64,000 nucleotides of DNA from Octopus vulgaris (Eukaryota), in NCBI GenBank assembly GCA_951406725.2, contig OX597822.1, forward strand, positions 86,924,001 to 86,988,000, read 5' to 3'. Positions 771 to 62,257 of this stretch are shown here, piece after piece. The notes below the pieces were generated by a model. It saw only the letters and a program-made list of their open reading frames with translations, did not search any database and was not told the origin of the DNA. Both the position numbers and the translations under genes were made by a program. How positions within the stretch are numbered: the stretch's first letter is position 1; each line of letters opens with the position of its first letter.

Positions 771-1117
771 AAGCTTCAGGATAAAGCATTTGTCGAGTAA
801 AGAGCATAATGTGAAACGAAATAATTGACAAGGGAACAGGAAATTACGTAGTGAATTTACTTCGCTTACACCTGTTTCTGCTATAAGATGCCGTGGATTC
901 AGAGCTGTGTGTTAGTACATCACCTCATAGATTCGTCAGAGCTTCTGATGCACAAGCATTCAGTTTTGAGTCTATGGAAACTCAGCAAATAAAGATATAA
1001 GCTTACGAGGTTCATTGCATAATTTCCTGTTCCTTTGTCAAATTTTTTTTTCCACATTATGCTCTGTACTCGATGATATTCTGAAGCATAAGAATATTAT
1101 TGAGTTCAAGCACCAGG
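771..1117 (-). mobile_element. Fold-back Penelope-like (pLTR-type) non-autonomous element with hammerhead motif
   Basis: Inverted arms 772-855 / 1011-1088; abuts (TA)n; hammerhead core on the minus strand just inside the left arm. Confidence 0.7.
864..942 (-). ncRNA. Minimal type I hammerhead ribozyme motif
   Basis: Minus strand: gcu-CUGACGA-[ucuaugaggugaug...caucuuauagca]-GAAAC-aggu-GUA-agc. Confidence 0.65.
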
Positions 1118-3411: not shown

Positions 3412-3523
3412 ACGTTCACGACCAACCAGGCTATCAGATGTTGCTACACATCGCTGGTCACAATGCACTTCACATTCTTTTAGCCTTCAAATGACGCCAC
3501 CCTGCTGGCTAAGCGAGCAGGCC
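3410..3523 (-). mobile_element. 3' fragment of SINE family E
   Basis: Reverse complement matches 41720-41832 of the full-length SINE. Confidence 0.85.
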
Positions 3524-3750
3524 ATATATATATATTTGTATGTATGTATATGTGTGTGTGTGTGTCTATCTATCTATCTATGTGTGTGTATATATATGTA
3601 TATATAAGTATATATGTATGTATGGATGTATATATCTATATATCTAAATATAAATGGACAACAAAACCAAGGCAAGATGAGTATCTCAGTCATTTAAAAT
3701 ATTTAATTAGAGTAAGGTGAATCAAAACACGGAGATGTAGAATTGATTAA

Positions 3751-3828
3751 TGTCTTACCTCAGTTTCTGGGACATCCCGGGTGAGGGGTCAGCATCTCCA
3801 TACACTGGGTATTCCGTCATCAGAGACA
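3751..3828 (-). ncRNA. Type I hammerhead ribozyme, intact core
   Basis: Minus: ugucu-CUGAUGA-cggaauaccc...gggauguccca-GAAAC-ugag-GUA-agaca; 5-bp stem I. Confidence 0.8.
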
Positions 3829-3923
3829 AGGAGTGTTTGCAGGAAAGATCCAGACACAGACTACTGTTTTATTCTTCTATCTACTGGGAATTTTCTGTCT
3901 GGAACTTTCCTGCATACACACCT

Positions 3924-4001
3924 TGTCTTTGATGATGGAATACCCACTGTATGGAGATGTCGACCCATCATGTGGGATATCCCAGAAACAGTTGTAAGAC
4001 A
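3924..4001 (+). ncRNA. Type I hammerhead ribozyme, C3U-mutated copy
   Basis: Plus: ugucu-UUGAUGA-uggaauaccca...ugggauauccca-GAAAC-aguu-GUA-agaca. Confidence 0.7.
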
Positions 4002-4341
4002 CTAATCAATTCTGCATCTCTGTTTTTTGATTCACCTTACTCTAATTAAATATTCTAAATGACCTGAAATACTTGTCTTGCCTTGGTTTCGTTGTCCAAG
4101 CCAACTACGGATCCTGAGCTCCAGCCTCAGCTGTGAACTTTGAACCTAACATGTGACCAATTATTGCACTTATGCAGTGTACCTATTCATTTATATATAT
4201 ATATATATATAAATTTTATATATATATATATATATATAAATATGAGGAGTTTAGTTCACTGATGATCTAAACGAATAAGTACACTGCATAAATACATTTA
4301 CATACATACATACATATGTCTCTCTCTCTCTCTCTATCTCT

Positions 4342-9484: not shown

Positions 9485-11405
9485 CTGTTTCTTGTGTGTC
9501 CCTAATGTTTATTGCTTCTGCACATGTCTTCCAAATACAAACACTACTTTCTCTTAATCTTCCTGTGATTCTACTACACCCCTTGTGTGTCCGTAGCTTG
9601 CACTGGGTACTCTATGAAATTTCTGCCTACATCTTTCCTACATATTGAGCAGCGTCATTTACCTGAAGGGATAGCGTCCTCTCTGTTTTCCTGCTTATTG
9701 GAACATAGGTCTTTGCTAAGTTAGTTTTAAGGCTCTTCGATTCCAAGTTTTGCTTTCACACCAAGAATTTCTATTCTAATTCTATTATAGATCCTGCTAT
9801 GAGAATGAGGTAATTGACATATAATAGTTCTCAAGAGCAGCTGGTCTTAAATTCCTGTTATAGTCTGAAGGACAATGATGAATAGGAGTGGACTGAGAAC
9901 CAAGCCCTGGTGAACTTCTACCTATACCCTAAATTAATCACTGTACTCATGGCTAACTCTCACCTCACTGACTGCACCCTGTACATGGCTTGAATGGCAT
10001 TCACAAGCCGTTTGTCTTCTTCTAGCTTCTTCAGAGACCACCAGATAACAGAACAAAGGACTGCGTTAAGAGCTTTCTCCAGATCAACAAATGCCAAGTA
10101 CAATGGCTTACTTCTAGCTAAATACTTCTCCTGTAGACTAAGAAGATGACATCAATAGCCCTCTGCATCCCTCTCACATGAAGCAAAGCTGCATCACATC
10201 TTGTCTAATTCTGTTCTTCATTAAGAGGGTTATAACTCTCTCTGTAACTTCCACCTGGTCCTGCAATTTGATACCTCTCTAATTACTTTCTCTCCTGGCA
10301 TCTCTTTTACCCTTGTAACAATTGACTATAATGCTGCTATACCACTCATTGGGTATGACACTTTCCTGTACAACCTGATTAACTATACAGGGGACTAGGC
10401 TGTGTGCTACTCTGCCGGATATTTTAAGCATTTCACTGATGATTCTTGATGGACCAGGGACTTTCCCATTCTTCATATCCTTAATTACCTTAACTATCAT
10501 ACTGCTGCTAACTAGGATAGCTTCTCCTTCCATTGGGTTCACATTGGGAAGACTTTCCTTTCTTCATATTTAATTGCCTTTCATTGTAGCACTTTCATGC
10601 CTCTTTCTTTCCAGAATCACTAAAAGTGCAAGTGTACCTTTATCCTTCCACACATTCACTTCTCTCCTACAACATCTTGATTCTCACTTATAGACTGTCT
10701 TGCGATCCAGAACATCTCATGCTTCTGATTTTCATGCTGTAAGACATTGGCAAACCACTTCCTTCCTGCTCCTACTCCTTACTAGATAAACACATTCATT
10801 AGCTTCCCTTCCTGGCCACCTGATATACCACTTTAATTTTCCAACACTTGCTAAACCTGTCCGTTCACTTTGAGGGCCCTGTCCACCTCACTGTTCCACC
10901 ACTGTGTCAACCTTGGTCTGGCTGGAATTTTGACCCAACTTCATATTGTACCCCTTAATAGGTTGTCTCATAAGAACTTCCAGTATTTCTCTATGTTATC
11001 TCTCTCTCTCTCTTCCTTCTCATCAAATACTTCAGTTAGAACTTCTCTAAACTTCTGATTGTTTACTGAATCATTAAGCTTCCATATTCTCCTTTTCCAG
11101 ACTGGCTTGTATCTCTGAATCTTTCTAAACCTAAGTCTGAAGTTAACACTAAACTCTGTTGAGTTGTACATTCTGCACCATGGAAGGACTTTGCATTTAC
11201 AAGCATCTGCCTGTCCTTGTTTCTGATGAAAATATGGCCAATCTGGCTTGTGTACCTACTAGATTAACTAGATTAACAGTGGCTGGCTGGCTGGTTTGCT
11301 GCAGTTAGTGTTGCAGATCAGCAAATCATTTGCATTATGGACTTCTAGCAGCCTTCTTCTTTGTTCTCTCCTCATTTCTGAAACCAGAGTCATAAGTATA
11401 CCATC
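9485..11405 (-). mobile_element. Decayed RTE-clade LINE (endonuclease-RT region)
   Basis: KYLARSKPLYLAFVDLEKA, MKNGKVPGPSRIISEMLK, LSPLLFIIVLQ, with frameshifts and stops. Confidence 0.9.
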
Positions 11406-13753: not shown

Positions 13754-15319
13754 AATATATAAATTTAAATTTAAAATGAGGGTGAGAAATTAGATGTTAA
13801 TTTAATTAACATCGATTTCACACCAGTGGTCTAGCATATAAAAAAACTGAAGGTTCAGTAAAATTGTATTATATACATATTAGAGGGAAACCACCCTTAT
13901 GCTAGAAATAGATCCGCTGTGGTCTTATCACTAAGAAATGTTCTCAAGAAAAATTTAGCCAAACAACCAAAATGTAATCGAGCAAGACAAAAGAAAAAGC
14001 AATGAAAACATGGATTATTCGCATACATGTTTCACTATTAACATATTACGTAATTTTACTTACATAAATGTCCGTAGGTCATCAGTGCGACCGTCTAGAT
14101 GAATATAATTTGCAGGACTGCATACTACGTGTTCATTCACACTTACATTCAACAGAACATGTAAGCTTCATTTCTTTCCAGTCTTCTCATGTCCTCTGCA
14201 TTCAAGGTTCAAGTCTCACTACCCCACAGTATCACAGTAGTAGCTTCGTATAATCTACCTTTCACTCTGAGGGAAAAGACTTTTGTTGCCAGCAGCAATG
14301 GTAACTATTGGTTGCATAAGAGTAGAATTGTTGAAGGTGACAACAAGTGAATCAATAATGTATAATAAAAAGTGGAGGTGATATAACCAAGTTTCCACGT
14401 ATATCAGAGTCAACAGCTCAACAATGTGATGCTGCAGTTGGACAGAAAGCTTTTAATCCAAGAGAATTCCATAGAATCAGCTTGGTGAATATTGCAACAA
14501 AGATAAGTACCAATGTACCAGTGGTTCTCATAAATGAATCTTCTTACGCTAAAGATATTCATAACTGATCAAACCTGAGTGACTTCTGATCTGTCTGTAG
14601 ATGAGTTAATCAAATATTTTTCATCTTCCTAAAGTTCACAAAATAAAAATGGTCTTTCCAGCAGTTGACTCTTTACAATCTTTAATGTTCTTATCTCCTT
14701 TACTGTCAACAAGAAACAAGACAGACAGATAAGCTGCAACATTATAATGTTGATCATTGCTCTTGTTGTATTGTGTAACTTCAATATGAGATGAATCTTA
14801 TGATCTTAGGACCTTGAACATGCTAGCAGTGTTACTTTATTGAATGCACCCAATGCTTTAAAGAAGTTTGCTTTAAACATTAATTGATCTGTATTCTCAC
14901 AGTCAACAGTATTACTTAATAGCAATGACAGAGGAGTTTGTTCCTTTGAGGTTTTTCCTGCTACTTGTTGACCAGTCCAGGACAGTAAGATTGGGGAACT
15001 TATTTCATGTTGGCTCTCTAATATTGATATCCAGTTTCTAATCTCAAAGAGATGCAAAACTACTCCAAGAGCTGATGTGCCTGTGCACTTGTACACTCTT
15101 CTCTTTGGCTACTGTGAAGTTTCATATTTATAATTTCAGATTTTCCTTCTTAAGGATCTGATAACTGGGTTTGAAAAGAAAAATGCAGTTGAGTTCTGTA
15201 CTTACTTTAAATATGCCAAATCTGGTAATACTGGTAAATTCATTGCTATCTGGTGCCAGAACTGGTCATCTTCTCTGTGTTGACTTCACATTTCAACATC
15301 ATCATTATTCAGTGCTGAA

Positions 15320-18774: not shown

Positions 18775-18860
18775 ATTTTCTACACATGTTTCAAAGGCTG
18801 CAAATTCCCTAATTCGGATTGAATAAGGAGGCCATTTTGCAGCATTCTCTTCAGGAAAAT
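18775..18860 (-). ncRNA. Type I hammerhead ribozyme, intact core
   Basis: Minus: auuuuc-CUGAAGA-gaaugcugcaaa...uuugcagccuuu-GAAAC-augu-GUA-gaaaau; 6-bp stem I. Confidence 0.8.
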
Positions 18861-18911: not shown

Positions 18912-18965
18912 CTCCCTAGGAGCCCATGGTATGAATGGCCATTCATACCATGGGCTCCTAGGGAG
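18912..18965. repeat. Perfect 54-bp palindrome, no spacer
   Basis: ctccctaggagcccatggtatgaatgg|ccattcataccatgggctcctagggag. Confidence 0.97.
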
Positions 18966-19222
18966 AAAATAATAAAAAGGAATTTTGTAAAATTTTCGTT
19001 CAGCTCCATTTCTTCCCTCACTAAATATAAAACTTCAATTATCCGCACTAAGGCATGGTTGCGATACCCCATGGTCGTAACCTCAACCGTAATTTTTCTG
19101 TTGTGATTTTTGCTACCCATGTATCGGTTATAATTTGAATAATCCGTAACAAGATAATTCATTTATCCATTTCATTAAATATATATATATATATACATAT
19201 ATATCATAATGATGATGATGGT

Positions 19223-38104: not shown

Positions 38105-40815
38105 CATCATCATCATTTAATGTCTACTTTCCATGCTGGCATAGGTTGGATGGTTTGACTGGAACTGGTAAACTGGAGAGCTGCACCAGGTTCCAGTCTG
38201 ATTTGGTATGGTTTCTATGGCAACCACTCCCAAAGTGTAATGGGTGCTTTTTGTGTGCCACTGGCATGGGTGCCATATACATGACATTGGTGATGGCCAT
38301 GACTACAGTTTCACTTGGCTTAACAAGTCCTCTCAGCACAGCTTATTGTGAACAGTCTCAGTATCTTGTCATCACCTCTGTGTTGCTCATCATTCGAAGA
38401 CCATGCTACTGGTCACAATTACAATTTCCTCCAACAGCCACAACTATGATTTCACTTGATTTGATGAATCAAGCACTGCATATCACCAAAGGTCCCAGTT
38501 GCTTGTTATTGCCTCCATGAGGCCCAACGTTCAAAGATCATGCTTCACTACCTTGTTCCATGTCATCCTGGGTCTACCTCTTCTGCAGGTTCCTTCCACA
38601 ATTAGAGATCGGCACTTCTTTACACAGCTGTCCTTGTTCATAAGCATCACATGACCATACCAGCATAGTTGTCTCTCTTGCACACCACATTTGATACCTC
38701 ATATCCATTTTTTTCTCTCAATACACTTATGCTCTGTTGAACATGCACACTAACATTGCACATCCAGCAGAGCATGCTAGCTTCATTTCTTACAAACCTT
38801 CACATCTCCTCTGCAGTCACAGTCCATGTTTCACTGCCATGAAGCATGATTGTTGGCACACAAGCATCATACAATCTGCCTTTCATTCTGAGGGAGAAGC
38901 CCTTTGTTACCAACAGAGGCAGAAGCTCTCTGAACTTAGCCCAGACGATTCTTATTCTAGCAGCTATGCTCTCTGTGCATTCCCCTCTACTGCTGACTTG
39001 ATCACGTAGGTAATGGAAGCTATCAACTACTTCTATGTATCCCCCATTGGCATTTGATGGAGTCTATTTTCTGTACACTTGTAGTGTTTATTGTACCTGT
39101 ACATCTAACACACACAAAGACTATTTTCCCTGTTAACCTTCCTACTTACTAAAACTTTGGTTTTTGCTAAATTGACTCTAAGGCCCTTTGATTCTAGACC
39201 TTGCTTCCATGCCTAAAATTTCTTCTCTTGTTCTTGTAGTGATTCAGCTATAAGAACAAGGTCATCCGCATACAGGTGCTCCTAGGGGCTTCTCAACTTA
39301 AATTCCTCTGTTATTGTCTGCAGAACTACCCTGATTAAGAGGTGGCTGAAGACCGATCCTTGGTGAACCCCTACCTATACACTGAATTCATTACTATACT
39401 CATTGACAACTCTCACCTTATTGACAGCATCTCTGTACATGGCTTGTACAGCTCCCACCAACCCTTCATCTACCTCTAGTTTCTGCATTGACCACCAGAT
39501 AAGGAATTGGGGAACTCTGTCAAAGGCTTTCTCCATGTCAACAAAAGCCAAGTACAGAAGTTTATTTATGGCTAGGTACTTCTGCAATTGTCTTACCAGG
39601 AGTATATAACATTAACAGTGCTTCTCCTTGGCACAAAACCAAACTGTATCTTATCTAGACTAACCCTTTCCCTAATTAGTTGGGCTATGACCCTCGCTCT
39701 GAATTTCATCACCTGATCTAAGAATTTGATATCTTTGTAATTATTTTCATCTAAGGATGGAAATAATTACACCAGTCATTGGGTATGACACCTTTTGTGT
39801 ACAACCTAATTATCTATATGGGTGACTAGACCATAACATACACTGCCAGATATTTTAAGCATCTCAGCAGTTATTCCTGATGAGCCAGGGGCTTTCCCTG
39901 TCTTCATATCCTTCATGGCTTCGTCTACCATGCTACTGTCTATTTGGATTACTGGTCCCTCAAGCCAGACTTTCCCTCTCTCATGAGTTCTCCATATTCA
40001 GTAGCCTTTCATAGTGGCATTTCCAAGCCTCCTTCTTTGCAGAGTCACTAACTACTAGTGAACCATCATCCTTGCGAACACATTTGTCTCTCCTGCCACA
40101 TCATGATTTTCTCTGACACATTGCCTTGCCATCCAAAATGCTGCAAGCTTCTGGTTCTCATGACACAGAACACTGCCAAAGTTTCACCTTTCTGCTTCTC
40201 ACCTGGCTAAGTACACCTGTCTTCTAGCCTCCCTCCTAGCTACCTGATATAATTCCCCGCTACCTCCACTCTTCCAGTCCTTCCAGGCTTCTTTCTTTGC
40301 TCTAATGGCCTTGTCTATGGCATCATTCCACTACCACGTCACCCTAGTTCTGGTTGTGACTTTGCACCAACTGCAGATTTGGTTTGTGGCCCTCAGCAAG
40401 CTGTCCCACTGGAATTCCCAGTTGCCCTCTATGTTACATGTCTGTACTTCCTCCTCCTTGCCAAATTTCTCAATTGGGGTGTCTCTAACTGTCTGACCTT
40501 ATAAAGGATCTTTAAGCTTTCAGATCCTTCTTTTCCAGATTGGTCTGCTTCTAGGCAACCTTCTGACCTGAAGTCTAAAGTCACTGATGACTACTCCATG
40601 CTGGGGGTACATTCTTCACCAGGGAGCATCTTTACACCTGTGAGCAACCATGTATCTCACTGTCTGGTGAGAATGTAATCAATCTGGCTTGCATGGTCAT
40701 TCGATTGATAGGTAAGCAGATGACTGGCTGGCTTCCTGAAGTTGGTGTTGTAGGATCATTATGTTATTTGCATCACAGAAGTCCAGTAGCCTTGTTTGTA
40801 GCCTCTTCATTTCAG
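38103..40815 (-). mobile_element. Decayed RTE LINE, longest copy in the window
   Basis: QKYLAINKLLYLAFVDMEKAFDRVP, LYADDL, endonuclease remnant near 40.6-40.8 kb, 3' UTR and (GAT)n tail. Confidence 0.92.
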
Positions 40816-41031
40816 ATATATATATACAGCAAGAAGAAAATGGAAGGGATACAGAACTAGTATGCATCAACTGTTAGACATTATATTATGTCTTTTATTT
40901 ATTCTAAAACATTTATGAGAATAAATACATATGTAAAAACTGTGTATTACATACATACATACCAGTATTATTATTACTCTTCTTATGTACTCATTAATAG
41001 GAATAATGTACTGTACCTACTGGTAAGTAAT

Positions 41032-41078
<47 letters not shown>

Positions 41079-41141
41079 CGGAGATGTATCGCATAGCAAG
41101 TAACTATCTGATTGTGTGCTGAAACGAAAACAATTGCATGG

Positions 41142-41204
<63 letters not shown>

Positions 41205-41269
41205 TGTGTATATGTATATTTATATATACATGCATTAGCCCTCTGAACTTTTTTGACCCTCTTTTAAAC

Positions 41270-41392
41270 TCTCTGATGAAGCCTAGAGGCACACCCAATA
41301 CCCTAATTTTATCTACTGATCACTACAGAACACTGAAGAGATGGAAATAACATGTAGGGTATTGTGACCTCTTGGCAGAAACGGCCGTAAGA
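41270..41392 (+). ncRNA. Type I hammerhead ribozyme with long stem II and palindromic GGCC loop III
   Basis: ucu-CUGAUGA-agccuagaggcacacccaauacccu...aggguauugugaccucuuggca-GAAAC-GGCC-GUA-aga. Confidence 0.82.
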
Positions 41393-41514
41393 AACCGTTC
41401 TTTTTCTATTCTATGAATTACTGGTACGTATGTATGCAATACACAGTCTTTACATATGTATTTATTCTCATAAATGTTTCAGAATATATAAATAGACATA
41501 ATATAATGTCTAAC

Positions 41515-41833
41515 GTGGAGGCGCAATGGCCCAGTGGTTAGGGCAGTGGACTCGCAGTTGTAGGATCGCGGTTGTAGGATCGCAGTTTTGATTCCCAGAC
41601 CAGGCATTGTGAGTGTTTATTGAGCGAAAACACCTAAAGCTCCACGAGGCTCCGGCAGGAGATGGTGGCGATCCCTGCTGTACTCTTTTGCCACAACTTT
41701 CTCTCACTCTTTCTTATGTTGGCCTGCTCGCTTAGCCAGCGGGGTGGCATCATTTGAAGGCTAAAACAATGCGAAGTGCATTGTGACCAGCGATGTGTAG
41801 CAACATCTGTTAGCCTGGTCAGTCACGGTGATC
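41515..41833 (+). mobile_element. Full-length tRNA-derived SINE family E with 9-bp TSD
   Basis: TSD atgtctaac at 41506-41514 and 41834-41842; A box tggcccagtgg; internal tandem duplication of gttgtaggatcgc. Confidence 0.92.
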
Positions 41834-42061
41834 ATGTCTAACAGTTGATGTATCCCCTCCATTTTCTTCTTGCTGTATAATTTAAGGGTAAATCACTTTT
41901 TACTCTTGGCCAGTTACTACATTCAATAGTGAAATTGCCGCACAATAACCAGCACTTGGGTATTAATAATTGAGTACAGTACCAGCAGCATATTGCATAG
42001 TCAGTATCCCTAGGTTGGATTCACAAACTCTAACTCTCACTGAATTATATATTATATATAG

Positions 42062-42247
42062 TGCGGGTGGCACGTAAAAAGCACCCACTACACTCACGGA
42101 GTGGTTGGCGTTAGGAAGGGCATCCAGCCGTAGAAACACTGCCAGATTTGACTGGGCCTGATGAAGCCTTCTGGCTTCACAGACCAGCAGAACGTCCAAC
42201 CCATGCTAGCATGGAAAACGGACGCTAAATGATGATGATGATGATGA

Positions 42248-42250
<3 letters not shown>
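42062..42250 (+). mobile_element. Young RTE 3'-end fragment
   Basis: CpG-intact, (GAT)n tail. Confidence 0.9.
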
Positions 42251-42269
<19 letters not shown>

Positions 42270-42284
<15 letters not shown>

Positions 42285-42627
42285 CGGCAAAATGTCTGTC
42301 TGTGTGTGTATCCTTTATACAAATCCACAATTTTTCAGTTAGAGGGCTCACACTTTCTATGGTCATTCAAAACCATCCAAGGGTGGTTGGGCACATCTTT
42401 ACATTTCCCCAGTCACCCTGCAAAGAATCAATAGAAGTGACATTTTTGTGAATTTTCTATCCAAAACCCAATAAAAATGCCCGAAACTTGATATGCCAAT
42501 TGAATACCAGCTAGCTCTATGTGATTGGTTGGAGATTTGGACAGTACTCGCATGTATGTGCGCACGCACGCAGCTGTACATGCATGCACTAGCACTATGA
42601 CCCTGTGTTGCCGGGTTATAGTGCTAG
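42270..42627 (+). mobile_element. Non-autonomous Helitron
   Basis: Homologous to 17499-17856; terminal hairpin actagcactatgaccc/gggttatagtgctagt ending CTAG^T. Confidence 0.85.
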
Positions 42628-42781: not shown

Positions 42782-43634
42782 TATGAAGGTGTATTCCAGA
42801 AGTTTTGGAACATTTTTAGGAGAGGCAGTTATAACTGTCTTAGATTATTTTAATTTTAGTGTATCATTACTACACCACTAATAATCTGACCTGCCAACTT
42901 TTGTTATTCCAGATTAAAGGAGATGGCAGTGACAAACCTTTGAAGATACAAACACTGCTTGTCACAGGTGATTTGTTTGCAGAATGCAATCCAGATGTGA
43001 AGACAATTTGGAAGCTCACTTTGCAATAAAGTTTTGTGTTTAACTGGGCAAAAATGCTACAGAGACTTATGAAATCCTCCAGACTGGTCATGGATTAAAT
43101 TGTATGAACTGAGCATATGTTTTTTGCTGGTACAAGAGGCCAAGCAGTGCAAGTCTACAGAGAAGCTCATGCAAGTCCCCTTTCTTGATAGCAAGAGCAC
43201 CATCTACATCCACTGTTTTCCCTCTGGAGATTTTGTGGAGATTTTGAGGGAGCTCAGGTAGAAAGATTTCATCACCAGAGGCCAGAGCACCAGCACCAGG
43301 ACAATGCATCAGTCCACAATTCCATCCTGGTAACCAAACTACTTGACAAAGATGGACATCAGAACTGTCATCCCTCACCCTCCCTACAACCCAGACCTTG
43401 CTCTCTGTGATGTTTAGTTGTTCACCCAAGCTGAAGGAGATTATGACAAAGGACTCCGACACCTTCACTTTGGAGGATTCCCACAGAACCTTCACGAAGG
43501 GGATGGAAAGCTACAAAAAGTGTATTGAAGTCGTCAGAGGTTCCTGCTGTGAAGGAGATTAGAGTTTTGTTCTCCTTTGAAATAAATAAATGTCTCAACT
43601 GAAAAGGTCTCAAAACTTCTGGAATGCACCTTGT
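42782..43634 (+). mobile_element. Internally deleted mariner element with TIRs
   Basis: TIRs aaggtgtattccagaagttttg / caaaacttctggaatgcacctt; LGKNATETYEIL, HQDNA and HPPYNPDLALCD remnants. Confidence 0.85.
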
Positions 43635-44628: not shown

Positions 44629-47600
44629 CTAAGTAAACTGTCTTTTTTGAAATATTTCAATTTAAATTCCTGATTCAAGACTTTGTGTAAACGATATCAG
44701 TTCCTCATCCATGTTTTATTTATTATTTATTTGCCTCACTATTAAATGTCTCGTCACTTTGTCTTGGGTCTTGGGAGTAAAATAAACTTAGATGAAATTA
44801 TTTTGCAATATAGATTACTCATATTCTTAAATTTATTTGTATACATGTATATATGTATGTATGCATTATCTGTCTGTATATACACATGTGTGTGTGTATG
44901 TATGTATATATATGTGTGTATGTACATATGCATGTATGTATCTGTCTATCTATCTAGCTATCTATCTATCTGTCCATATGTAGATAATGATGCAAATAAA
45001 CAAACATGCTTGGGCTTTATATTTATATAAAATATGCACACATACATACATGTAAATGTATACAGGAGTATATATGCAGAGAGAGAAACAAAAGCTGAAA
45101 ATATTCTGGAGATGAACATTCATGTATAAACATACATAGATTTATATATTTATAGAACAGATTGACATGGATTACAAATGACACAAAAAATTAAGTTAGG
45201 AGGGCATGGTATTTCAGGTTTGACAGCTGTTTCTGGGGGCTCAGAAGGATGTAATAGTTGTAATGTTGGCAAATGAAGCATACAAAAAGTCAAGAATATG
45301 CAACCAGTTGTGGATGCATACAAACATTACCATAAACCTGGCCTCCATCTTCAGAGTGGAGAGATTGGCACCTAACCATCTAACTGGTTAGATATATTTT
45401 GTATATCAAGACCAAGCATGTTTATCTGATTATTTGCATCATCTCCATATCTGTTTACCTGGATTCCTCTTATAGCCACTCTTTACTCCACAATCTTAGT
45501 CCTCTATAAAATTTTTTGGAGTGTAAGTTCACACCATTTGAGCACTACAAAGTGTTTTCCATCTTGAGTATCTCTGGATTGCATCTGTTGACTATATATG
45601 TGCATGTATATATATATGTGTGTGTGTGTGTGTCTTGCAAGCTACTCAGCAACCCTGCTGGTGCTCAGCCACCTGCATTGATGCTATGTAAAGAGTACCT
45701 GTGCTGGTGTCCCTTAAAATCACCAAGTCCATTCTGTAAAGTGGGGGGCTATTAGGAAAGGCATCCATGCCAAAATAGAGCCTGGAGCAGCTCTCTTATT
45801 TGTTAGCTTCTGTCAGACCATCCAACCCATGCCAGCATGAAAAACAGACGTTATGTACCCTAACCCACTGTATAACTCTGATCTTATTTGGCTGATGTAA
45901 TTCTTTGGTATGATGGTTTGTTTTTAATAGATTTATACTTTCTTTTTAATCTGGGTTCGATGCTCTGTTTTACCTTGTTCTTCGATTGTTATTGTCTGAA
46001 AGTGTTTTATGATTGTTGAACTTGTTTGACTTATTGAATTTCTGTCCACTTTTGCTTACATCTGTATACGAGGAGGTATGGGTTATCTCCCTTCACTTAT
46101 TTCTTGATTTGTTTTGTAAATACTTACAGGCCTTATGATTCCTTCTGTTGTTGTCAGGTGTTTGTTTTACTGACTTTTTATTCTAATCTTGGTCTCCTCT
46201 AATTCTTTTCCATAATTGGTTTCCACTCATGTAACCTTAAATTTTTCAGTTGTAGCATTTTATTTGATTTCATTTCCACCAACTGTATATCAGTTTTCCA
46301 TGAATCTAATACATTTTCTTGTGTCTTTCCACTTATTCATTTGGTGGTTTCTTTCTGCATTACTTTGCCATATTTTCCAAATTTATCTTTGAATTTATGT
46401 TCTTGAAGTCATTATAGAATGATTTCTGCTTCAAATTTTTGATGCTAGGTTTATTCCAGTTTCAAGTTTCCTGGTAGAACACAAAATAGTCTTCCAGAAA
46501 CTAAAATACTCAAAAAAATTGACCAAGTCATGCCATAAACAAGGCAAAAGAAATGTCAGTCTCTGATTTACGGAGAAACCCGCACATTGATTGGGAGAAG
46601 ACAAAGCATCCATATTCCATTTAGCCATACAATACTTTCCAATTCTCTATGGATGTTGCATTATTTTATTATTATCAGTTTGTCCGTTGCTGTCAAAGAT
46701 GACCAAGAGACATCATGTAGGAGAAGAAGGCAGGACACTGTGTGTCCAACTGTGGCCAATCTGTCTGATGCATACTTGGAAGGCTGTGTGCCACAGGTCA
46801 GGCACTAGTGGTCTGTTGGGAGTGAAAGGCAATGAGTTGGCACTGGACTTGCATAGTTCATATTTTCTTTGTTTGCATAAAATCTATAAGACAAGTTCCT
46901 CCACGTATTTCACTTTATTTGTTTGTAAAAATAAGCACTTATGTGTCTTGTGAAGCACAGATCATAATAGGATTTTAAACACCTTCAGGCCTAAAAGAGT
47001 TTAACGACATCCAAAATACAATCTGCCATGAAATCTCTAGAAAACAGATTGATTTAAATCTTTTCTACTTTCTTATTTCCCTGTCAGCTCAGTTGATTAA
47101 CATCAGTAATTTATGTAAGAAAGATGTCACTTCCTTCACAAGTCTTACCAGCAGCTGTGCTCTTTTTGAAAGTTTCTCTTGAATTATTATATTGTAAACA
47201 CAACCATTGATAAATGTTAATCAAGATTTTAGTTTTTGTTATGAGAAAACTATAACAGTTGTTATGAATTCTTGTATCCTAAATGACATTTATTAATCTT
47301 TTTACCTGTCATTCGCTTTTAACCTGGCATTCACTGCCAGTCCTCCCATTCACAGAAATATTAAAACCTCATGAAATGAAACTAGGATAAATTGTCTTCA
47401 ACAGAGCTTATCATTCGGAACTGGATCAACACTTCTGATTGTTACGTATTACTGTTTTGAGTTGAAAAGCTAAAAAATTTTCAAGAATGAAGTTATATGA
47501 ATGCTTTTTAAATTCTTTTATGTAAAAAGTAATTTTTTGATTGCTTAGGAAAATATGTAGCTCTAGAATATCCAAATTCACTTGATTTAAGCAATTTAGC

Positions 47601-47816: not shown

Positions 47817-47923
47817 TTATGCGAAGGGACCATTTAGTTGTTCAACTGATCCGATTGGAAGTCGGTGAGTAGGTCGTCCAGCATCAGGAAGTAAGCTGCT
47901 CACACTACTTTTAACATCTTCAA
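47817..47923 (-). CDS. Candidate terminal coding exon (phase 1): xEDVKSSVSSLLPDAGRPTHRLPIGSVEQLNGPFA*
   Basis: Long polypyrimidine tract followed by the first AG; open to TAA; CpGs retained in Arg codons; repeat-free UTR-like flank with AATAAA on the minus strand. Protein not recognised. Confidence 0.5.
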
Positions 47924-49977
47924 CTTTTATTTCAATGAAAAGAAAAAAGAGAAAGAAAATGTTTACTAAGGACTCCTGAACAGCATGTGTCAAGAGTTTT
48001 TGAACATCATGTGTCATAACAGCTTTCCCACCTCTCCTCCTCTCTGCTGAAAGCTCTCACTAGGATGCTAAGGATGAAGCCATATTGTTTGCTATTATCT
48101 GTTTAGCTTGACATCTTGTCTGAAATGCCAAGTCCCTACTGTAAACAGCAACATCTGGTTTACAACAATATTCAGCTGCTACTTTGTTGCACTATGAAAA
48201 TCAGGAATATTACATAATAGCTAGTTGTATGTATCAAACTATTATGTTGAAATAGAGAAGATAGTGTTTGTTAAGTGTTAGGAATCCCATTATTTGTGTA
48301 GATAATGCTAACATTTTTGTTTGTGAGAGATTACATTAAACTGGATGCTAACTGAAATATCTATTACTTTTGAAATTAAAACTTTGTTATCAATGCACTT
48401 TACCATCATAATTCAGTACACAGGAAAAAAATATGCAGATGAACTTAAGAATTTGTATAGGAATACAGAAAAAGAAAGAAAAAAAAATGCGGTCAGCTGA
48501 AATCACATCCAAATACTGAGTCATGAGAATCTTAATTTGACTTGTCTGGTTAATCTTCTAAATTCTTGATCATCATTGCCATATCAGATCATTCTGTCCT
48601 AGTTTTAATGTTTATTTCCAATGTTCTCAGTTCAGTTTGCCGTATTGTCTCTCCATTTATCTATATAATGGGCTTAAAGATTAATTCTTTGATTAAGTTA
48701 CTTAAGCTTTACCTAATGTATTTCAACTTTACCTTTAATGTACAACTCCAAATAGAAACAAAAAAAAAAAATCTCCATATTTTATTGCAAACATCTTAAA
48801 ATTTCCTTGTTCCAATCTTGGTAGTTTGTCTTAGTGGCTCCTTTTGTCTTATTATTCAGATTTCATTTAGATTGCGCATTCTGTAGAACAATTTTCCAAT
48901 TCCCTTTCAATCTTCTGATTTTAGCTGATTTTAGATGTTCTTACTTGAATGTAGCACTTCAAAGTGAAGAATGTCTCCACAGAAACTTCATATTTTAAAG
49001 ACAGCTACTTACACCAGAGAAGATAAAGTTCTACTTCATTATTATAAGCAACAAACTCATTTTTCATTTTAATTTCTCTCATTAAATCTCATGTATCCAA
49101 ACAACATATCAAGCTGCTGTGGTTGTTTCTTATAGCATTTGTCTTTTATACACATTCATTTTTAATTTTGTTACCTTCCTTGTGAACAGAACATGTTATC
49201 AAGTCTTTTAATCACCCACTTTCTCCTTCACACTTTATTTCTGGAGGAGCAGTCACATTCTATTATAAGTTCTTTTAATACGTTGTGTTTTAAATAAAAA
49301 TGAAAAAAAAGTCATTTCTAAAAGCTTGCCGATTGCTTTTATAATTTATTCCTTTTTTTTTTCAGTCACGGTTTCTTTACTAATTTCAGTCAATGGACTG
49401 CAGCCATACTGGGGTACCATCTTTAAAAGGTTTTAGTCACTTACATCAATCCCATTCCTTATTTCAATCTGATCCTTATTTTATTGGTTTGGATTTGTGA
49501 AACTGCTAAGTTATGGGATATAAAGGGATACAGCACTAACAACACTAAATTTTCTTTAGTAAACATAAACACACACACACACACACAAAGGGCTTCCAAG
49601 TCTATAGTAGGAGACACTTGCCCAAGGTACTGTATGCTGGCATTGAACCAGAAACTCCATTGTTTTTAAAAGAAACTCCTTTAACCACACTGCCATTCCT
49701 TTCTGTCACTACCGTAAGTTTCTAGTTGCCACAATATTTTGCTATCAATGTATTTTTAGCACAATTCTTCACTGTATGATGTTTTATCGGGTTATAATTA
49801 TTTTCTTTAAAGCCATCTTTGAAAGCATTCACACTAGGCTGAAGGCTAGTTCAAGTTCTACCAAGATTGACTTTACCATTCTTCCTTTTGGGGTCAATAA
49901 AAATAAGAACTAGTTGAGCACCTGGGTCAGTGTACTCTTTCCTCTGAAATTGGTGGCCTTGTGTCAAAATTATAGCA

Positions 49978-52030: not shown

Positions 52031-54612
52031 CCAATGGTGCTGAGTAAAGTGCTTTAGTGATAAAGTCACTAACTTTATACACTGAATACTTTGTCTTTGT
52101 CCTGTCTGCATCATAGACTAGAAATTTACTTCTTCTAAGCAGTCAATCTATAATGAGGTCAAGTGTGGGGGGGCATGCATCAATGCAATGCATTGCTTGC
52201 ATTTACCATTTGTTGATGTATTCCTGGGTCCTTTTGGGTAATCTGTTGAGGCAGAGTCCCAATCTGTCCATATCTCTGCAAGATATCTCCTCATCTGCCA
52301 TGACCATGTGGTTGACCACCACAAGCCATCAATTCAGTTGGATCCTCAGTGAAAAGAACGTGGTAAGCAGAGTCACACTCATAGAAATCAAACAACAAGG
52401 CCAAGCAGTTTAAGCTGACACTCCCAAATCATACAAGAAACAAGATGCATTCCAGTTTCTGAGCAGAGTCAGTGGTTGGATATGAAACCTGACCAACAGT
52501 AACCTATAATCCAGCAAAGTGACCTGCTACCAGAGGAGCTCAGGTAGCTTTTAAGTAATCTATGTAAATTATCAACACTATATCTTGTGCAGATTTTCTC
52601 CTAAGAACTAGATGTAATGGTATGATCATATTAAAAGAATACTAAAAGGTGTCCAGTTGAAGCACAGCCAGGAGCAATTCAATGTCAACCAGTCATAAGC
52701 TGTTAATGTTGAAATTTTGATTAGTCTACAATGTAACATTTGAATAAGGTTCATCTTTAACCTTCTCACAGGAAACCAGCCTATTGTATAAGCATAACAG
52801 AGTTAGGGTTATACTTTGAAAAATTGCTTCATTTTATGTTGGCTTTGGGAAGAAACAAAATAATCAATTTTCTTTTTTGTTGTTTGCTTCTCTTTCTTTG
52901 GGTTTTCCTTCTTCCTTAAACATTGTTTTCTTTATTGATGTTCTTACATTAACTTTATGTACTCTATATACTGTACGTACTTCATGCTTTTAACTCATAG
53001 GCACCTTTTTTTTTACACTGTTGTATTGTCAAAGTCTGCCTCTAGAATTCCCACACTGACTTTGAGACACAAAACCTGTTGGCTCAAAGCGTTAGCTGAA
53101 AGATGCCATCCATCTTTTATCCCATGGCGCCATCTGTTGTCATTGATTACTTGTCAGCTGTTCATTTGTAGATTCATTGTGAAATTTGATAAAACCTAGA
53201 TGATAACTTGTAAAATTAAGATTAAAGGCTAAGTTGTGACAAGACAGCCTGATGATGTGTTTGTGTCTCTGTGTCCAGAAATCACATGATCGTCATAAAT
53301 ACTGCCATTCATTTTCATTCTTCTATGAAGAATATATCTGGCCATGGAAAAATATTTCCTTGCTTGGAAACAAGTGAGGGTTGACAACAACCCTGTTGAG
53401 ATTACTATAAAGATAATTATAAATTTATACAAAGACAGTTTGTTCAAGTAGAATTTGTTAAAATCAGTGCTATTGTCTGTAAATATTATCTGTAAGTATT
53501 ATTACAATTCTTCCTGTCTCTCATAGTGAAAAATGTTGGACTGATTGAGTATGAAAAATAATAAATTTAGGTGTTAAATATGTTTAAGAACAGATAACAG
53601 TAACAGCAATGTCCTCTTGGTTGCTGTAAAGTTTGCTGGTAATTCAATATAGAAATCTTGTTGAATTTATTAGTAATTTTTATTCCCAAAACAATTTGTA
53701 AATTTTCTTCCTTGTGCATTCCTTGTTTTATATTTTTCATAATATATTAAACAGAAATTGTTTTTCTGTTGATTTTTTTTGCAATACAGAATAATGTGCA
53801 TTTACTGCTGCTTTAACAAAGTCTATGTAGATTTTTTTTTTTTAATACTGTAATTGATATGAATTGTTACGATTTAGGTTCTCCCTTCAGCTCAAATGAA
53901 TTTTTAAACATTTCTGTCTCAACGCTATTGCTCCTACTTAAGGACATACAAGTCTCCATTTGAATGATGCTTAAGGTGTTATTGCTGTGGTCAACCAGTG
54001 TACTGTTGTGCCAGCCACGCTTAGCAATGTTAGCAAACCGTGTTTACCATATATCAACTTGCTCAACTGATGGCATAGCTCATTATCTGATTGTATCTTC
54101 ATCTGACATTCTTGTCTTTGCTTTATTGTTTTTCTTTTTACATTTCTTTTTGCGTTTGTCAAGTTAGAATTACAACATACCTTAATTCAGTGGAACTTTA
54201 AAAGTCCTTTATTATTGTTTTCAGTTACGGAATTGATTTTTCCTTTTTTTTTCTTCTATATTTACATCTTGTATTATTTCATTATAAGTTTTAAAGAGGC
54301 ACCATTCTTATCTACAAGTCTGGACATTAATAAATATTACATCATGTTGCCAAAAAATTTCACTGCTTTTACACAATAGAGGACTTTTTCATTTGGCATT
54401 TCCTCTTTTATTAAATGATTCCCTTTGATCTCCCTTCTGTATCCTACATTCCTCAAACTTAGAAGCTACAACTTGTCCTTGATAGACAAGCTTCTCAAAT
54501 CTATAGGATGGCCCTTTCATTTCTCTTTTATTCTTTATTTTCGTTTTCCCTTTTCCTTCCTTTTTTCTTTTATACCCTTCTCCCCCTGACCCAACTTCCT
54601 TCACTTTTTACT

Positions 54613-61849: not shown

Positions 61850-62257
61850 ATACATGGTCTGATCAATGAACATCTGAACCTTAATAATGAAGCTAAAGAA
61901 TGCAGAGTAAAGTTGCTTGGCAAAGATTGATCTTGAACTCTGCTGTACATGCACACTAAGATTTAACATCCTAGCTCACTTCTGCTGTTTACAGCAGTGC
62001 TTAGAAGGAAAGTGTGTAGTGTGTGATTGTCTCATTGACCATGACAAAAGAAGCAGAAAGCATATGGAGAGGAGTGTATGAGCCTCACAAAGTGTACAAG
62101 TGGTTCAGATGTTTCCGAGATGGCTGAAAGAATGTTGATATTGACGAACGTTCTGGGAGACCCACAACCAGCAGAACTAAGAAAAACATCACAGATGTGC
62201 ATGCAGCTGTTAGGGGAAATCGTCAAATTACCATCTGTGTGTTATCAGAGGATGTAA
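61850..62257 (+). mobile_element. Mariner 5' fragment (HTH region)
   Basis: QKAYGEECMS..KVYKWFRCFRDG*KNVDIDERSGRPTTSRT..VRGNRQITI. Confidence 0.85.

What the first reader, a model, noticed from the sequence alone, without database searches (positions are those of the whole stretch)
40823..41879. Best-preserved hammerhead: palindromic GGCC loop III, long stem II, dated by a SINE
GAAAC-GGCC-GUA gives a self-complementary ACGGCCGU, the feature that lets minimal PLE hammerheads pair as dimers. Stem II extends ~20 bp, and its loop contains further CTGATCA and CTGAAGA motifs. A SINE with a perfect 9-bp TSD interrupts only the right arm, so the fold-back predates it. On the plus strand it would be sense to the inferred host pre-mRNA and could cleave it.
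Basis: partly seen in the sequence, partly recalled or inferred. Interest (0 to 1): 0.75.

Follow-up and report, generated by a model that had tools for sequence, protein, structure and literature searches.

The report
Decaying Penelope-type hammerhead ribozyme relic
This is a hammerhead (self-cutting RNA) motif inside one copy of a multi-copy repeat, most likely the leftover end of a Penelope-like jumping gene, a kind already known; it is predicted to fold actively only when paired with a second copy, and I found no host gene for it to cut.

Summary
A type I hammerhead lies at 41270-41392 (+) with an intact core, an 8-nt palindrome ACGGCCGU and a 20-bp helix II. A tRNA-like SINE (41515-41833, 9-bp duplication) interrupts only the right arm. 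A descriptor finds 5 such motifs in the window against 0.013 per shuffle.

Public contigs under four organism labels show that the motif belongs to a multi-copy family. SINE-free copies bridge the SINE site and run about 120 nt past the fold-back. So the fold-back is an inverted, truncated second arm, the known Penelope-like element (PLE) insertion layout; 4 of the window's 5 hammerhead loci have one.

This copy has the shortest helix I (3 bp), an A-A mismatch at the base of helix II and a private change favouring a misfold. Its predicted active monomer fraction is about 5e-6, and the left arm holds no partner ribozyme. The inner CTGATCA and CTGAAGA are not usable cores. The SINE gives order, not age, and an intact core is expected by chance (about 0.6). 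No host gene was confirmed; RNA was not examined.

This scan has noted the same kind on other DNA of this genome. Verdict: ordinary PLE-type relic, low interest.

The parts
40823..40967 (-). Inverted, 5'-truncated second arm of the element; copies the sequence downstream of the hammerhead, holds no hammerhead and no SINE; its outer end runs into a short (TA)n tract
   Evidence: 90 of 96 and 30 of 31 columns identical to 41419-41514 and 41849-41879; keeps 13 nt that the right arm lacks
40968..41236 (.). Spacer between the arms with two (TA)n tracts; origin (element body or captured DNA) unresolved
   Evidence: no match to the tail apart from TA runs; 41021-41236 was skipped as repeat, so the element's 5' boundary is not fixed
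41237..41514 (+). Direct arm, first part: multi-copy family sequence containing the hammerhead
   Evidence: listed contig pieces from all 4 runs, about 7-17% other letters; 22-35 contigs per run carry the variant at 41396
41270..41392 (+). Type I minimal hammerhead: 3-bp helix I, core CUGAUGA / GAAA / GUA, unpaired A on each side of helix II, predicted cut after 41389
41281..41376 (+). Helix II domain: 20 bp in four segments plus an 8-bp apical hairpin that contains CTGATCA and CTGAAGA
   Evidence: fold z-score -2.74 for 41255-41405; 1 of 200 shuffles as good
41381..41388 (+). Palindrome ACGGCCGU, predicted intermolecular helix III
41506..41514 (+). Left copy of the 9-bp target-site duplication of the SINE
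41515..41833 (+). High-copy SINE with a tRNA-like head (A/B-box reading by eye, from recalled consensus) and an internal 14-nt duplication
   Evidence: summed depth about 1000-fold above the hammerhead family; loose ends at 41515; 3' part matches 3425-3524 at 95%; no tRNA gene called
41834..41842 (+). Right copy of the 9-bp target-site duplication
41843..41879 (+). Direct arm, second part, matching the outer end of the inverted arm; 13 nt shorter than the left arm and than a SINE-free family copy
   Evidence: record 5 (19 letters between 41514 and 41849, where this copy without the SINE has 6)
41880..42004 (+). One-sided extension ('tail') of the direct arm, also family sequence; a (TA)n tract follows at about 42046
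   Evidence: records 5, 9 and 22 run to 42000-42001 with 26-27 other letters in about 150 nt

Best explanation
The motif is a type I minimal hammerhead in one copy of a multi-copy repeat with an inverted second arm, most likely the terminal repeat of a Penelope-like retroelement (or a protein-less derivative) that is now likely decaying without a job. Shown: the core, palindrome and helices; the multi-copy family; the head-to-head inverted arm; the one-sided tail; flanking (TA)n; the later SINE and a 13-nt loss in the right arm. Inferred from published PLE biochemistry: a PLE reverse transcriptase/GIY-YIG endonuclease cut a TA-rich site and copied the family RNA twice from internal start points, giving a long direct arm and a shorter inverted one. 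In the parent RNA, two hammerheads would pair through ACGGCCGU to form helix III and cut after GUA, slowly or with help from the element's protein. Predicted for this copy: alone it almost never adopts the active fold, so it would not cut a passing transcript at a meaningful rate.
For: Descriptor: 5 hits against 0.013 per shuffle. Family: contig pieces with about 7-17% other letters in 4 of 4 runs; SINE-free copies bridge 41514/41515 to 41849/41854 and continue to about 42001 (records 5 and 9). Geometry: 4 of 5 hammerhead loci in the window have an upstream inverted copy of their own downstream sequence, the layout described in PMC8557442 and PMC3846280. Extra nucleotide after A9, G10.1-C11.1 pair and palindromic loop III match PMC4209133. 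Folding of 41260-41400: active monomer -29.6 against minimum -36.0 kcal/mol, fraction 5e-6; two copies cofold through the palindrome (-80.9 against -72.0 for two monomers; hand-built active dimer -78.1). Decay: arms differ at 7 of 127 columns, so 17-19 key positions stay unchanged by chance with probability about 0.6; 4 of 6 motifs in the window lack a perfect palindrome; C41396 is T in about 99% of family depth in all 4 runs and here makes a G-C pair in a hairpin that ties up the core. Published PLE hammerheads: no monomer activity and low dimer activity (PMC4209133); protein needed (PMC11167929).
Against: No PLE reading frame is linked to this copy, so the tie to an autonomous PLE rests on structure. 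The tail is at least 120 nt against the published 30-40 nt. Helix II is far longer than the published 7-8 bp, and the A before G12 is not in the consensus I read. Only 40 of 233 difference rows were shown, so family-wide conservation of the core is not established. Whether this locus is kept in related species, transcribed or cut was not tested.
Confidence: 0.8

Rival explanations
1. The family is a non-LTR retrozyme: a 400-500-nt tandem unit that is cut to monomers, circularised and re-inserted by PLE enzymes, and this locus is a single-unit insertion. This is a sub-case of PLE mobilisation rather than a different mechanism.
For: No coding sequence around the motif; family length here is at least about 440 nt without the SINE; a 2026 preprint derives animal retrozymes from PLE pLTRs and finds many monomers; unchecked notes of this scan report long-stem-II tandem families with two-armed insertions in this genome.
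Against: No tandem second unit at this locus and no wrap-around match between tail and upstream spacer; helix I 3 bp and helix II 20 bp differ from the canonical 6 and 4 bp; the look-ups by sequence found no noted look-alike.
Confidence: 0.3
2. The copy sits sense in a host intron and cuts the host pre-mRNA, alone or when a family RNA pairs with it in trans.
For: Core and palindrome are intact; the dimer helix is strong; slight T excess on + (0.006-0.05) and 12 against 6 crude exon candidates on +.
Against: No host gene confirmed on either strand; predicted active monomer fraction 5e-6; no partner hammerhead in the left arm; the other motifs in the window have different palindromes; intactness is expected by chance; 8 of 9 tested Xenopus dimer elements did not cleave.
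Confidence: 0.05
3. The fold-back is a miniature DNA transposon (MITE) with terminal inverted repeats and a TA duplication, and the hammerhead is a passenger.
For: Both arms end at TATA, and mariner-like fragments are present in the window (by eye, recalled motifs).
Against: Family sequence runs about 120 nt past the right arm's end, so the ends are not symmetric; the same asymmetric layout occurs at 4 of 5 unrelated hammerhead loci.
Confidence: 0.04
4. Chance arrangement of short motifs.
For: No Rfam hammerhead match; weak helix I; a similar gapped pattern gives 4 chance hits in bacterial-type DNA of the metagenome collection (2 of the 4 checked lie inside bacterial genes).
Against: 0 of 300 shuffles give a palindromic hit; five unrelated loci share the core with different, still pairing helix I sequences.
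Confidence: 0.01

Closest known systems
Minimal type I hammerheads of metazoan Penelope-like elements (Cervera and de la Pena 2014, PMC4209133; parts 1-2 of 4 read, supplements not seen)
   Same: Type I order, intact core, extra nucleotide after A9, G10.1-C11.1 pair, palindromic loop III, enlarged helix II, short helix I, mostly single dispersed motifs
   Different: Helix II is 20 bp in a 98-nt domain (published 7-8 bp); an extra A precedes G12; helix I is 3 bp; no PLE reading frame attached
Inverted pLTR and tail structure of EN+ PLE insertions (PMC8557442 and PMC3846280, passages; mechanism in PMC11167929, parts 1-2 of 4)
   Same: Head-to-head inverted 5'-truncated arm, one-sided extension, TA-rich or microsatellite site
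   Different: Tail at least 120 nt instead of 30-40; a 270-nt spacer separates the arms; PLE clade not assigned
Metazoan non-LTR retrozymes (PMC7229834, passages; bioRxiv 10.64898/2026.07.22.740005, parts 1-3 of 5)
   Same: Non-coding repeat with a type I hammerhead; the axolotl HHR_Amex2 also has a mismatch (U-U) at the base of helix II and still cleaves weakly
   Different: No tandem units at this locus; non-canonical helix sizes; circular RNA not tested
Conserved intronic hammerheads of amniotes, C10orf118 and RECK (PMC3088659, passages)
   Same: Solo hammerhead possibly inside a host transcript
   Different: Those are conserved across species and cleave as single motifs; this one is a repeat copy with a dimer-type helix III and no confirmed host gene

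Membership tests
Minimal type I hammerhead of metazoan PLEs | Catalytic core CUGANGA ... GAAA ... UH in type I order | tested here: met
   41273-41279, 41378-41381, 41388-41389
Minimal type I hammerhead of metazoan PLEs | Palindromic 15.2-16.2 and loop III allowing a dimer helix | tested here: met
   ACGGCCGU, self-duplex -14.1 kcal/mol; forms in the cofold minimum
Minimal type I hammerhead of metazoan PLEs | [quoted passage not shown] | tested here: met
   A41280 (feature from PMC4209133)
Minimal type I hammerhead of metazoan PLEs | G10.1-C11.1 pair directly before G12 | tested here: inconclusive
   G41281-C41376 is there, but A41377 lies between it and G12 (or read A41280-A41377 as a mismatch); a mismatch at this place is published for an axolotl motif
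Minimal type I hammerhead of metazoan PLEs | Helix II longer than the canonical 4 bp (typical 7-8 bp) | tested here: met
   20 bp, well beyond the typical size
Minimal type I hammerhead of metazoan PLEs | Short helix I (typical 4-5 bp; 2 bp in Drosophila virilis) | tested here: inconclusive
   3 bp, inside the published range but weak; family state not resolved
Minimal type I hammerhead of metazoan PLEs | Self-cleavage as a dimer | not testable with these tools
   needs a bench assay
PLE insertion (EN+ clades) | Inverted 5'-truncated copy next to the 5' end, head to head | tested here: met
   40823-40967; same layout at 4 of 5 hammerhead loci
PLE insertion (EN+ clades) | Tail at one end only (published 30-40 bp) | tested here: inconclusive
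   one-sided extension present but at least 120 nt
PLE insertion (EN+ clades) | Dispersed multi-copy family at AT-rich or microsatellite sites | tested here: met
   many diverged contigs in 4 of 4 runs; (TA)n at both outer ends
PLE insertion (EN+ clades) | Linked RT plus GIY-YIG reading frame in at least some family copies | tested here: inconclusive
   none at this locus; other copies could not be read because no genome is held
Metazoan non-LTR retrozyme | Tandem units each with a hammerhead | tested here: not met
   no second unit at this locus; other loci not read
Metazoan non-LTR retrozyme | Abundant circular RNA | not tested
   no RNA data were laid on the motif
MITE (non-autonomous DNA transposon) | Element ends coincide with the terminal inverted repeats | tested here: not met
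   family sequence continues about 120 nt past 41879
Host-adopted intronic hammerhead | Lies sense in a host transcript | tested here: inconclusive
   no host gene confirmed on either strand
Host-adopted intronic hammerhead | Able to fold actively as a single motif | tested here: not met
   predicted active fraction 1e-6 to 4e-4 over three stretch lengths (secondary-structure model only)
Host-adopted intronic hammerhead | Orthologous locus conserved across species | not tested
   no listed contig spans the locus

The most novel reading that the evidence does not exclude
Solo copies of this long-helix-II family that lie sense in host transcripts are silent alone but are cut when a transcript of another family copy pairs with them through ACGGCCGU, so that transposon expression triggers cleavage of host pre-mRNAs in trans; the A before G12 would be a working variant of the core junction.
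Probability: 0.04. Interest if true: 0.7.

Novelty: new member of a known kind. Interest (0 to 1): 0.14.

Why it matters
As one locus it matters little: solo PLE-type hammerheads are reported in the thousands per animal genome, and the two-armed layout is published. I found no paper describing octopus hammerhead families (search: 4 listed, none on this; 1 listed) or a 20-bp helix II in a PLE hammerhead (listings), but the main survey of such variants (Lunse et al., cited in PMC6765202) and all supplements were not seen. The family would be a handy natural test of whether a hammerhead tolerates an A before G12 and a 98-nt helix II domain. Trans cleavage of host RNA would matter, but nothing here points to it.

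Tried and rejected
Rfam: no hammerhead match at gathering score (whole window) or E up to 10 (40700-42300). No whole genome is held, so no family alignment or covariation count could be made. Expression: six runs guessed to be RNA hold 0.25-0.29 of the sampled words and no holder is on record as RNA; none was laid, so this is no evidence either way, and strand, expression and cut-site ends stay open. Metagenome scan with a gapped family pattern: 4 loci, none folds like this motif or matches the window; 2 of the 4 were checked for reading frames and lie inside bacterial genes. Loop II / 3' tail pseudoknot: not supported here (86% of 1000 shuffled tails pair as well). Inner CTGATCA and CTGAAGA as extra or rewired cores: rejected by inspection (no G8; no helix II or helix I); a CUGANGA word has about a 1.5% chance in a loop of this size, so one is mildly unusual but unexplained. 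Host gene: Pfam on 146 stretches (145 of 641 six-frame stretches of 45 aa or more, picked by composition, plus 1) gave RVT_1, zf-RVT and PHD hits in LINE-like fragments and 4 weak sub-cutoff hits elsewhere; candidate exon 46679-46796 had no credible relative in either frame (the two single hits were multi-stretch artefacts), nor did 52117-52362 or 47820-48056 minus; 42913-42967 was too short and was not searched. These are weak negatives. A possible GIY-YIG end upstream of the 18854 motif was dropped because part of it is the inverted arm. Look-ups of earlier notes by sequence and near this place were empty.

Full report
Verdict. The hammerhead is real, but it is best read as an ordinary relic of a Penelope-like element (PLE) end.

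Setting. The window is an AT-rich animal sequence, 42% self-repeated, full of microsatellites, SINEs and LINE fragments. It looks like octopus; this rests on recalled repeat motifs and on unchecked earlier notes, not on a call that names the organism. No whole genome is held.

The motif. On the plus strand CTGATGA lies at 41273-41279, followed by one A, a helix II of 20 bp in four segments with an 8-bp apical hairpin, one A, then GAAAC-GGCC-GTA at 41378-41389. ACGGCCGU is a perfect palindrome. Helix I has only 3 bp. A descriptor with both core halves, helix I of 3 bp or more and helix II of 3 bp or more finds 5 motifs in the window, against a mean of 0.013 in 300 shuffles; 0 of 300 shuffles give a palindromic one. 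I wrote the descriptor after seeing the motifs, so the contrast is somewhat flattered. Rfam has no matching model at either threshold, probably because of the 98-nt helix II domain (inference).

The inner motifs. CTGATCA lacks G8. CTGAAGA is a valid core word, but only 4 nt separate it from the next GAAA and it has no helix I. Both lie in the apical hairpin. Pairing between loop II and the 3' tail is no better than with shuffled tails (86% of 1000 do as well). The strands are in ordinary type I order, so this is not one of the rewired hammerheads that earlier notes describe in this genome.

It is a repeat copy. Public runs under four organism labels hold part of 41220-41500. Laying contigs of four runs, one per label, showed many diverged relatives: the listed pieces over the motif carry about 7-17% other letters, and 22-35 contigs per run show T at 41396. 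The tool warns that summed depth is not a copy number, so I give none. Two contigs (records 5 and 9) cross the SINE site without the SINE and continue to 42001, and a third (record 22) covers 41849-42000; each has 26-27 other letters in about 150 nt. The family therefore runs about 120 nt beyond the fold-back. Only 40 of 233 difference rows were shown; none falls in the core, which is a weak hint only. The 5' boundary is open because 41021-41236 was skipped as repeat.

The fold-back. The left arm (40823-40967) is an inverted copy of the sequence downstream of the cut site and has no hammerhead. The arms differ at 7 of 127 columns, and the right arm lacks 13 nt that the left arm and record 5 both have. 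Four of the five hammerhead loci in the window, all unrelated in sequence, have such an upstream inverted copy of their own downstream part (41273, 3823/3930, 18854, 939; none found for 14085). This is the published PLE layout: an inverted 5'-truncated copy at the 5' end and a tail on one side (PMC8557442 and PMC3846280, passages), explained by copying from internal RNA start sites at AT-rich cuts (PMC11167929, parts 1-2 of 4). The tail here is longer than the published 30-40 bp, and no PLE reading frame is attached, so the assignment is structural.

The SINE. It spans 41515-41833 between two copies of ATGTCTAAC (41506-41514, 41834-41842). The left arm and the family contigs lack it, so it came after the two-armed insertion. 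That is an order, not a date. With each arm about 2.75% changed since insertion, 17-19 key positions survive unchanged with probability about 0.6, so an intact core is not evidence of selection. Four of the six motifs in the window lack a perfect palindrome.

How it would work. Published minimal PLE hammerheads have the extra nucleotide after A9, a G10.1-C11.1 pair and a palindromic loop III; single motifs showed no activity and dimers low activity (PMC4209133, parts 1-2 of 4). The Anolis PLE hammerhead needed the element's protein, and no RNA-seq reads ended at its cut site. Folding agrees. For 41260-41400 the active monomer is 6.4 kcal/mol above the minimum (fraction 5e-6). Two copies prefer to pair through the palindrome (-80.9 against -72.0 kcal/mol), and a hand-built active dimer lies at -78.1. 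This copy has two further handicaps: the A before G12, and C41396, which is T in about 99% of family depth and here closes a G-C pair in a hairpin that ties up the core. A mismatch at the base of helix II is known from an axolotl motif that still cleaves weakly (PMC7229834, passages). These are secondary-structure predictions without tertiary contacts.

Host gene. I could not confirm one. A Pfam scan of 146 selected stretches found only LINE-type domains and weak hits. Three exon candidates, two on plus and one on minus, had no credible relatives. Strand skew and crude exon counts lean slightly to plus. All of these are weak tests. No RNA reads were laid on the motif, so expression, strand and cut-site ends remain untested.

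Rivals. A retrozyme monomer is possible and is the same machinery under another name (bioRxiv 10.64898/2026.07.22.740005, parts 1-3 of 5), but there is no tandem unit here. A MITE is contradicted by the asymmetric ends. Host adoption is not excluded but nothing favours it.

Novelty. This is a new member of a known kind. The 20-bp helix II, the A before G12 and the long tail are small departures that I did not find in the listings and passages I saw. The paper on about-minimal PLE hammerhead variants by Lunse et al. was seen only as a reference in PMC6765202, and no supplements were read; either may already cover these traits. Earlier notes of this scan reached the same reading for other loci of this genome. 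Interest 0.14.

Noticed in passing
window 3654-3856 (-) and 3896-4098 (+): Head-to-head inverted pair of about 200 nt with a hammerhead in each arm (cores at 3823 minus and 3929 plus; the plus copy has C3U). Loop II can pair with the 3' tail about 17 nt after the cut (2.5% and 17% of shuffled tails as good), a possible pseudoknot.
   Followed up: partly
window 878-939 (-), inverted arm at about 1010-1073: Hammerhead with core CUGACGA, loop III one base from a palindrome, and an upstream inverted copy of its downstream sequence; ends in (TA)n.
   Followed up: partly
window 18792-18854 (-), inverted arm at about 18964-19030: Hammerhead with core CUGAAGA, 6-bp helix I and a long helix II, with an upstream inverted partial arm.
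   Followed up: partly
window 14033-14085 (-): Hammerhead with intact core, 5-bp helix I and perfect 6-nt palindrome ACAUGU; no inverted arm found within about 900 nt.
   Followed up: partly
window 41377, 3768 (-), 3984 (+), 879 (-): Three unrelated hammerhead families in the window have CA directly before GAAAC, so an A rather than the usual C precedes G12; possibly a shared local variant of the helix II junction.
   Followed up: partly
window 41424-41886 (+): Possible intron in the element downstream of the cut site: a good donor at 41424 (kept in both arms) and a pyrimidine run with AG at 41885-41886, about 150 nt without the SINE. PLE terminal repeats are known to hold introns. By eye and a crude score only.
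   Followed up: partly
window 41881: In one search nearly all contigs have A instead of T here at high depth, as expected if most family copies stop at 41879 and run into (TA)n like the left arm; this would mean two fixed 3' ends.
   Followed up: no
window 38543-40816 (-): Degraded LINE-like fragment (66% identical to 9688-11381 over its 39139-40816 part) that ends next to the (TA)n at the outer end of the left arm.
   Followed up: partly
window 43070-43600 (+) and 62020-62250 (+): Frameshifted mariner-like transposase fragments, recognised by recalled motifs; no Pfam support.
   Followed up: no
window 42913-42967 (+), 46679-46796 (+), 52117-52362 (+), 47820-48056 (-): Exon-like or coding-like stretches with no confirmed relatives; host gene identity and strand remain open.
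   Followed up: partly
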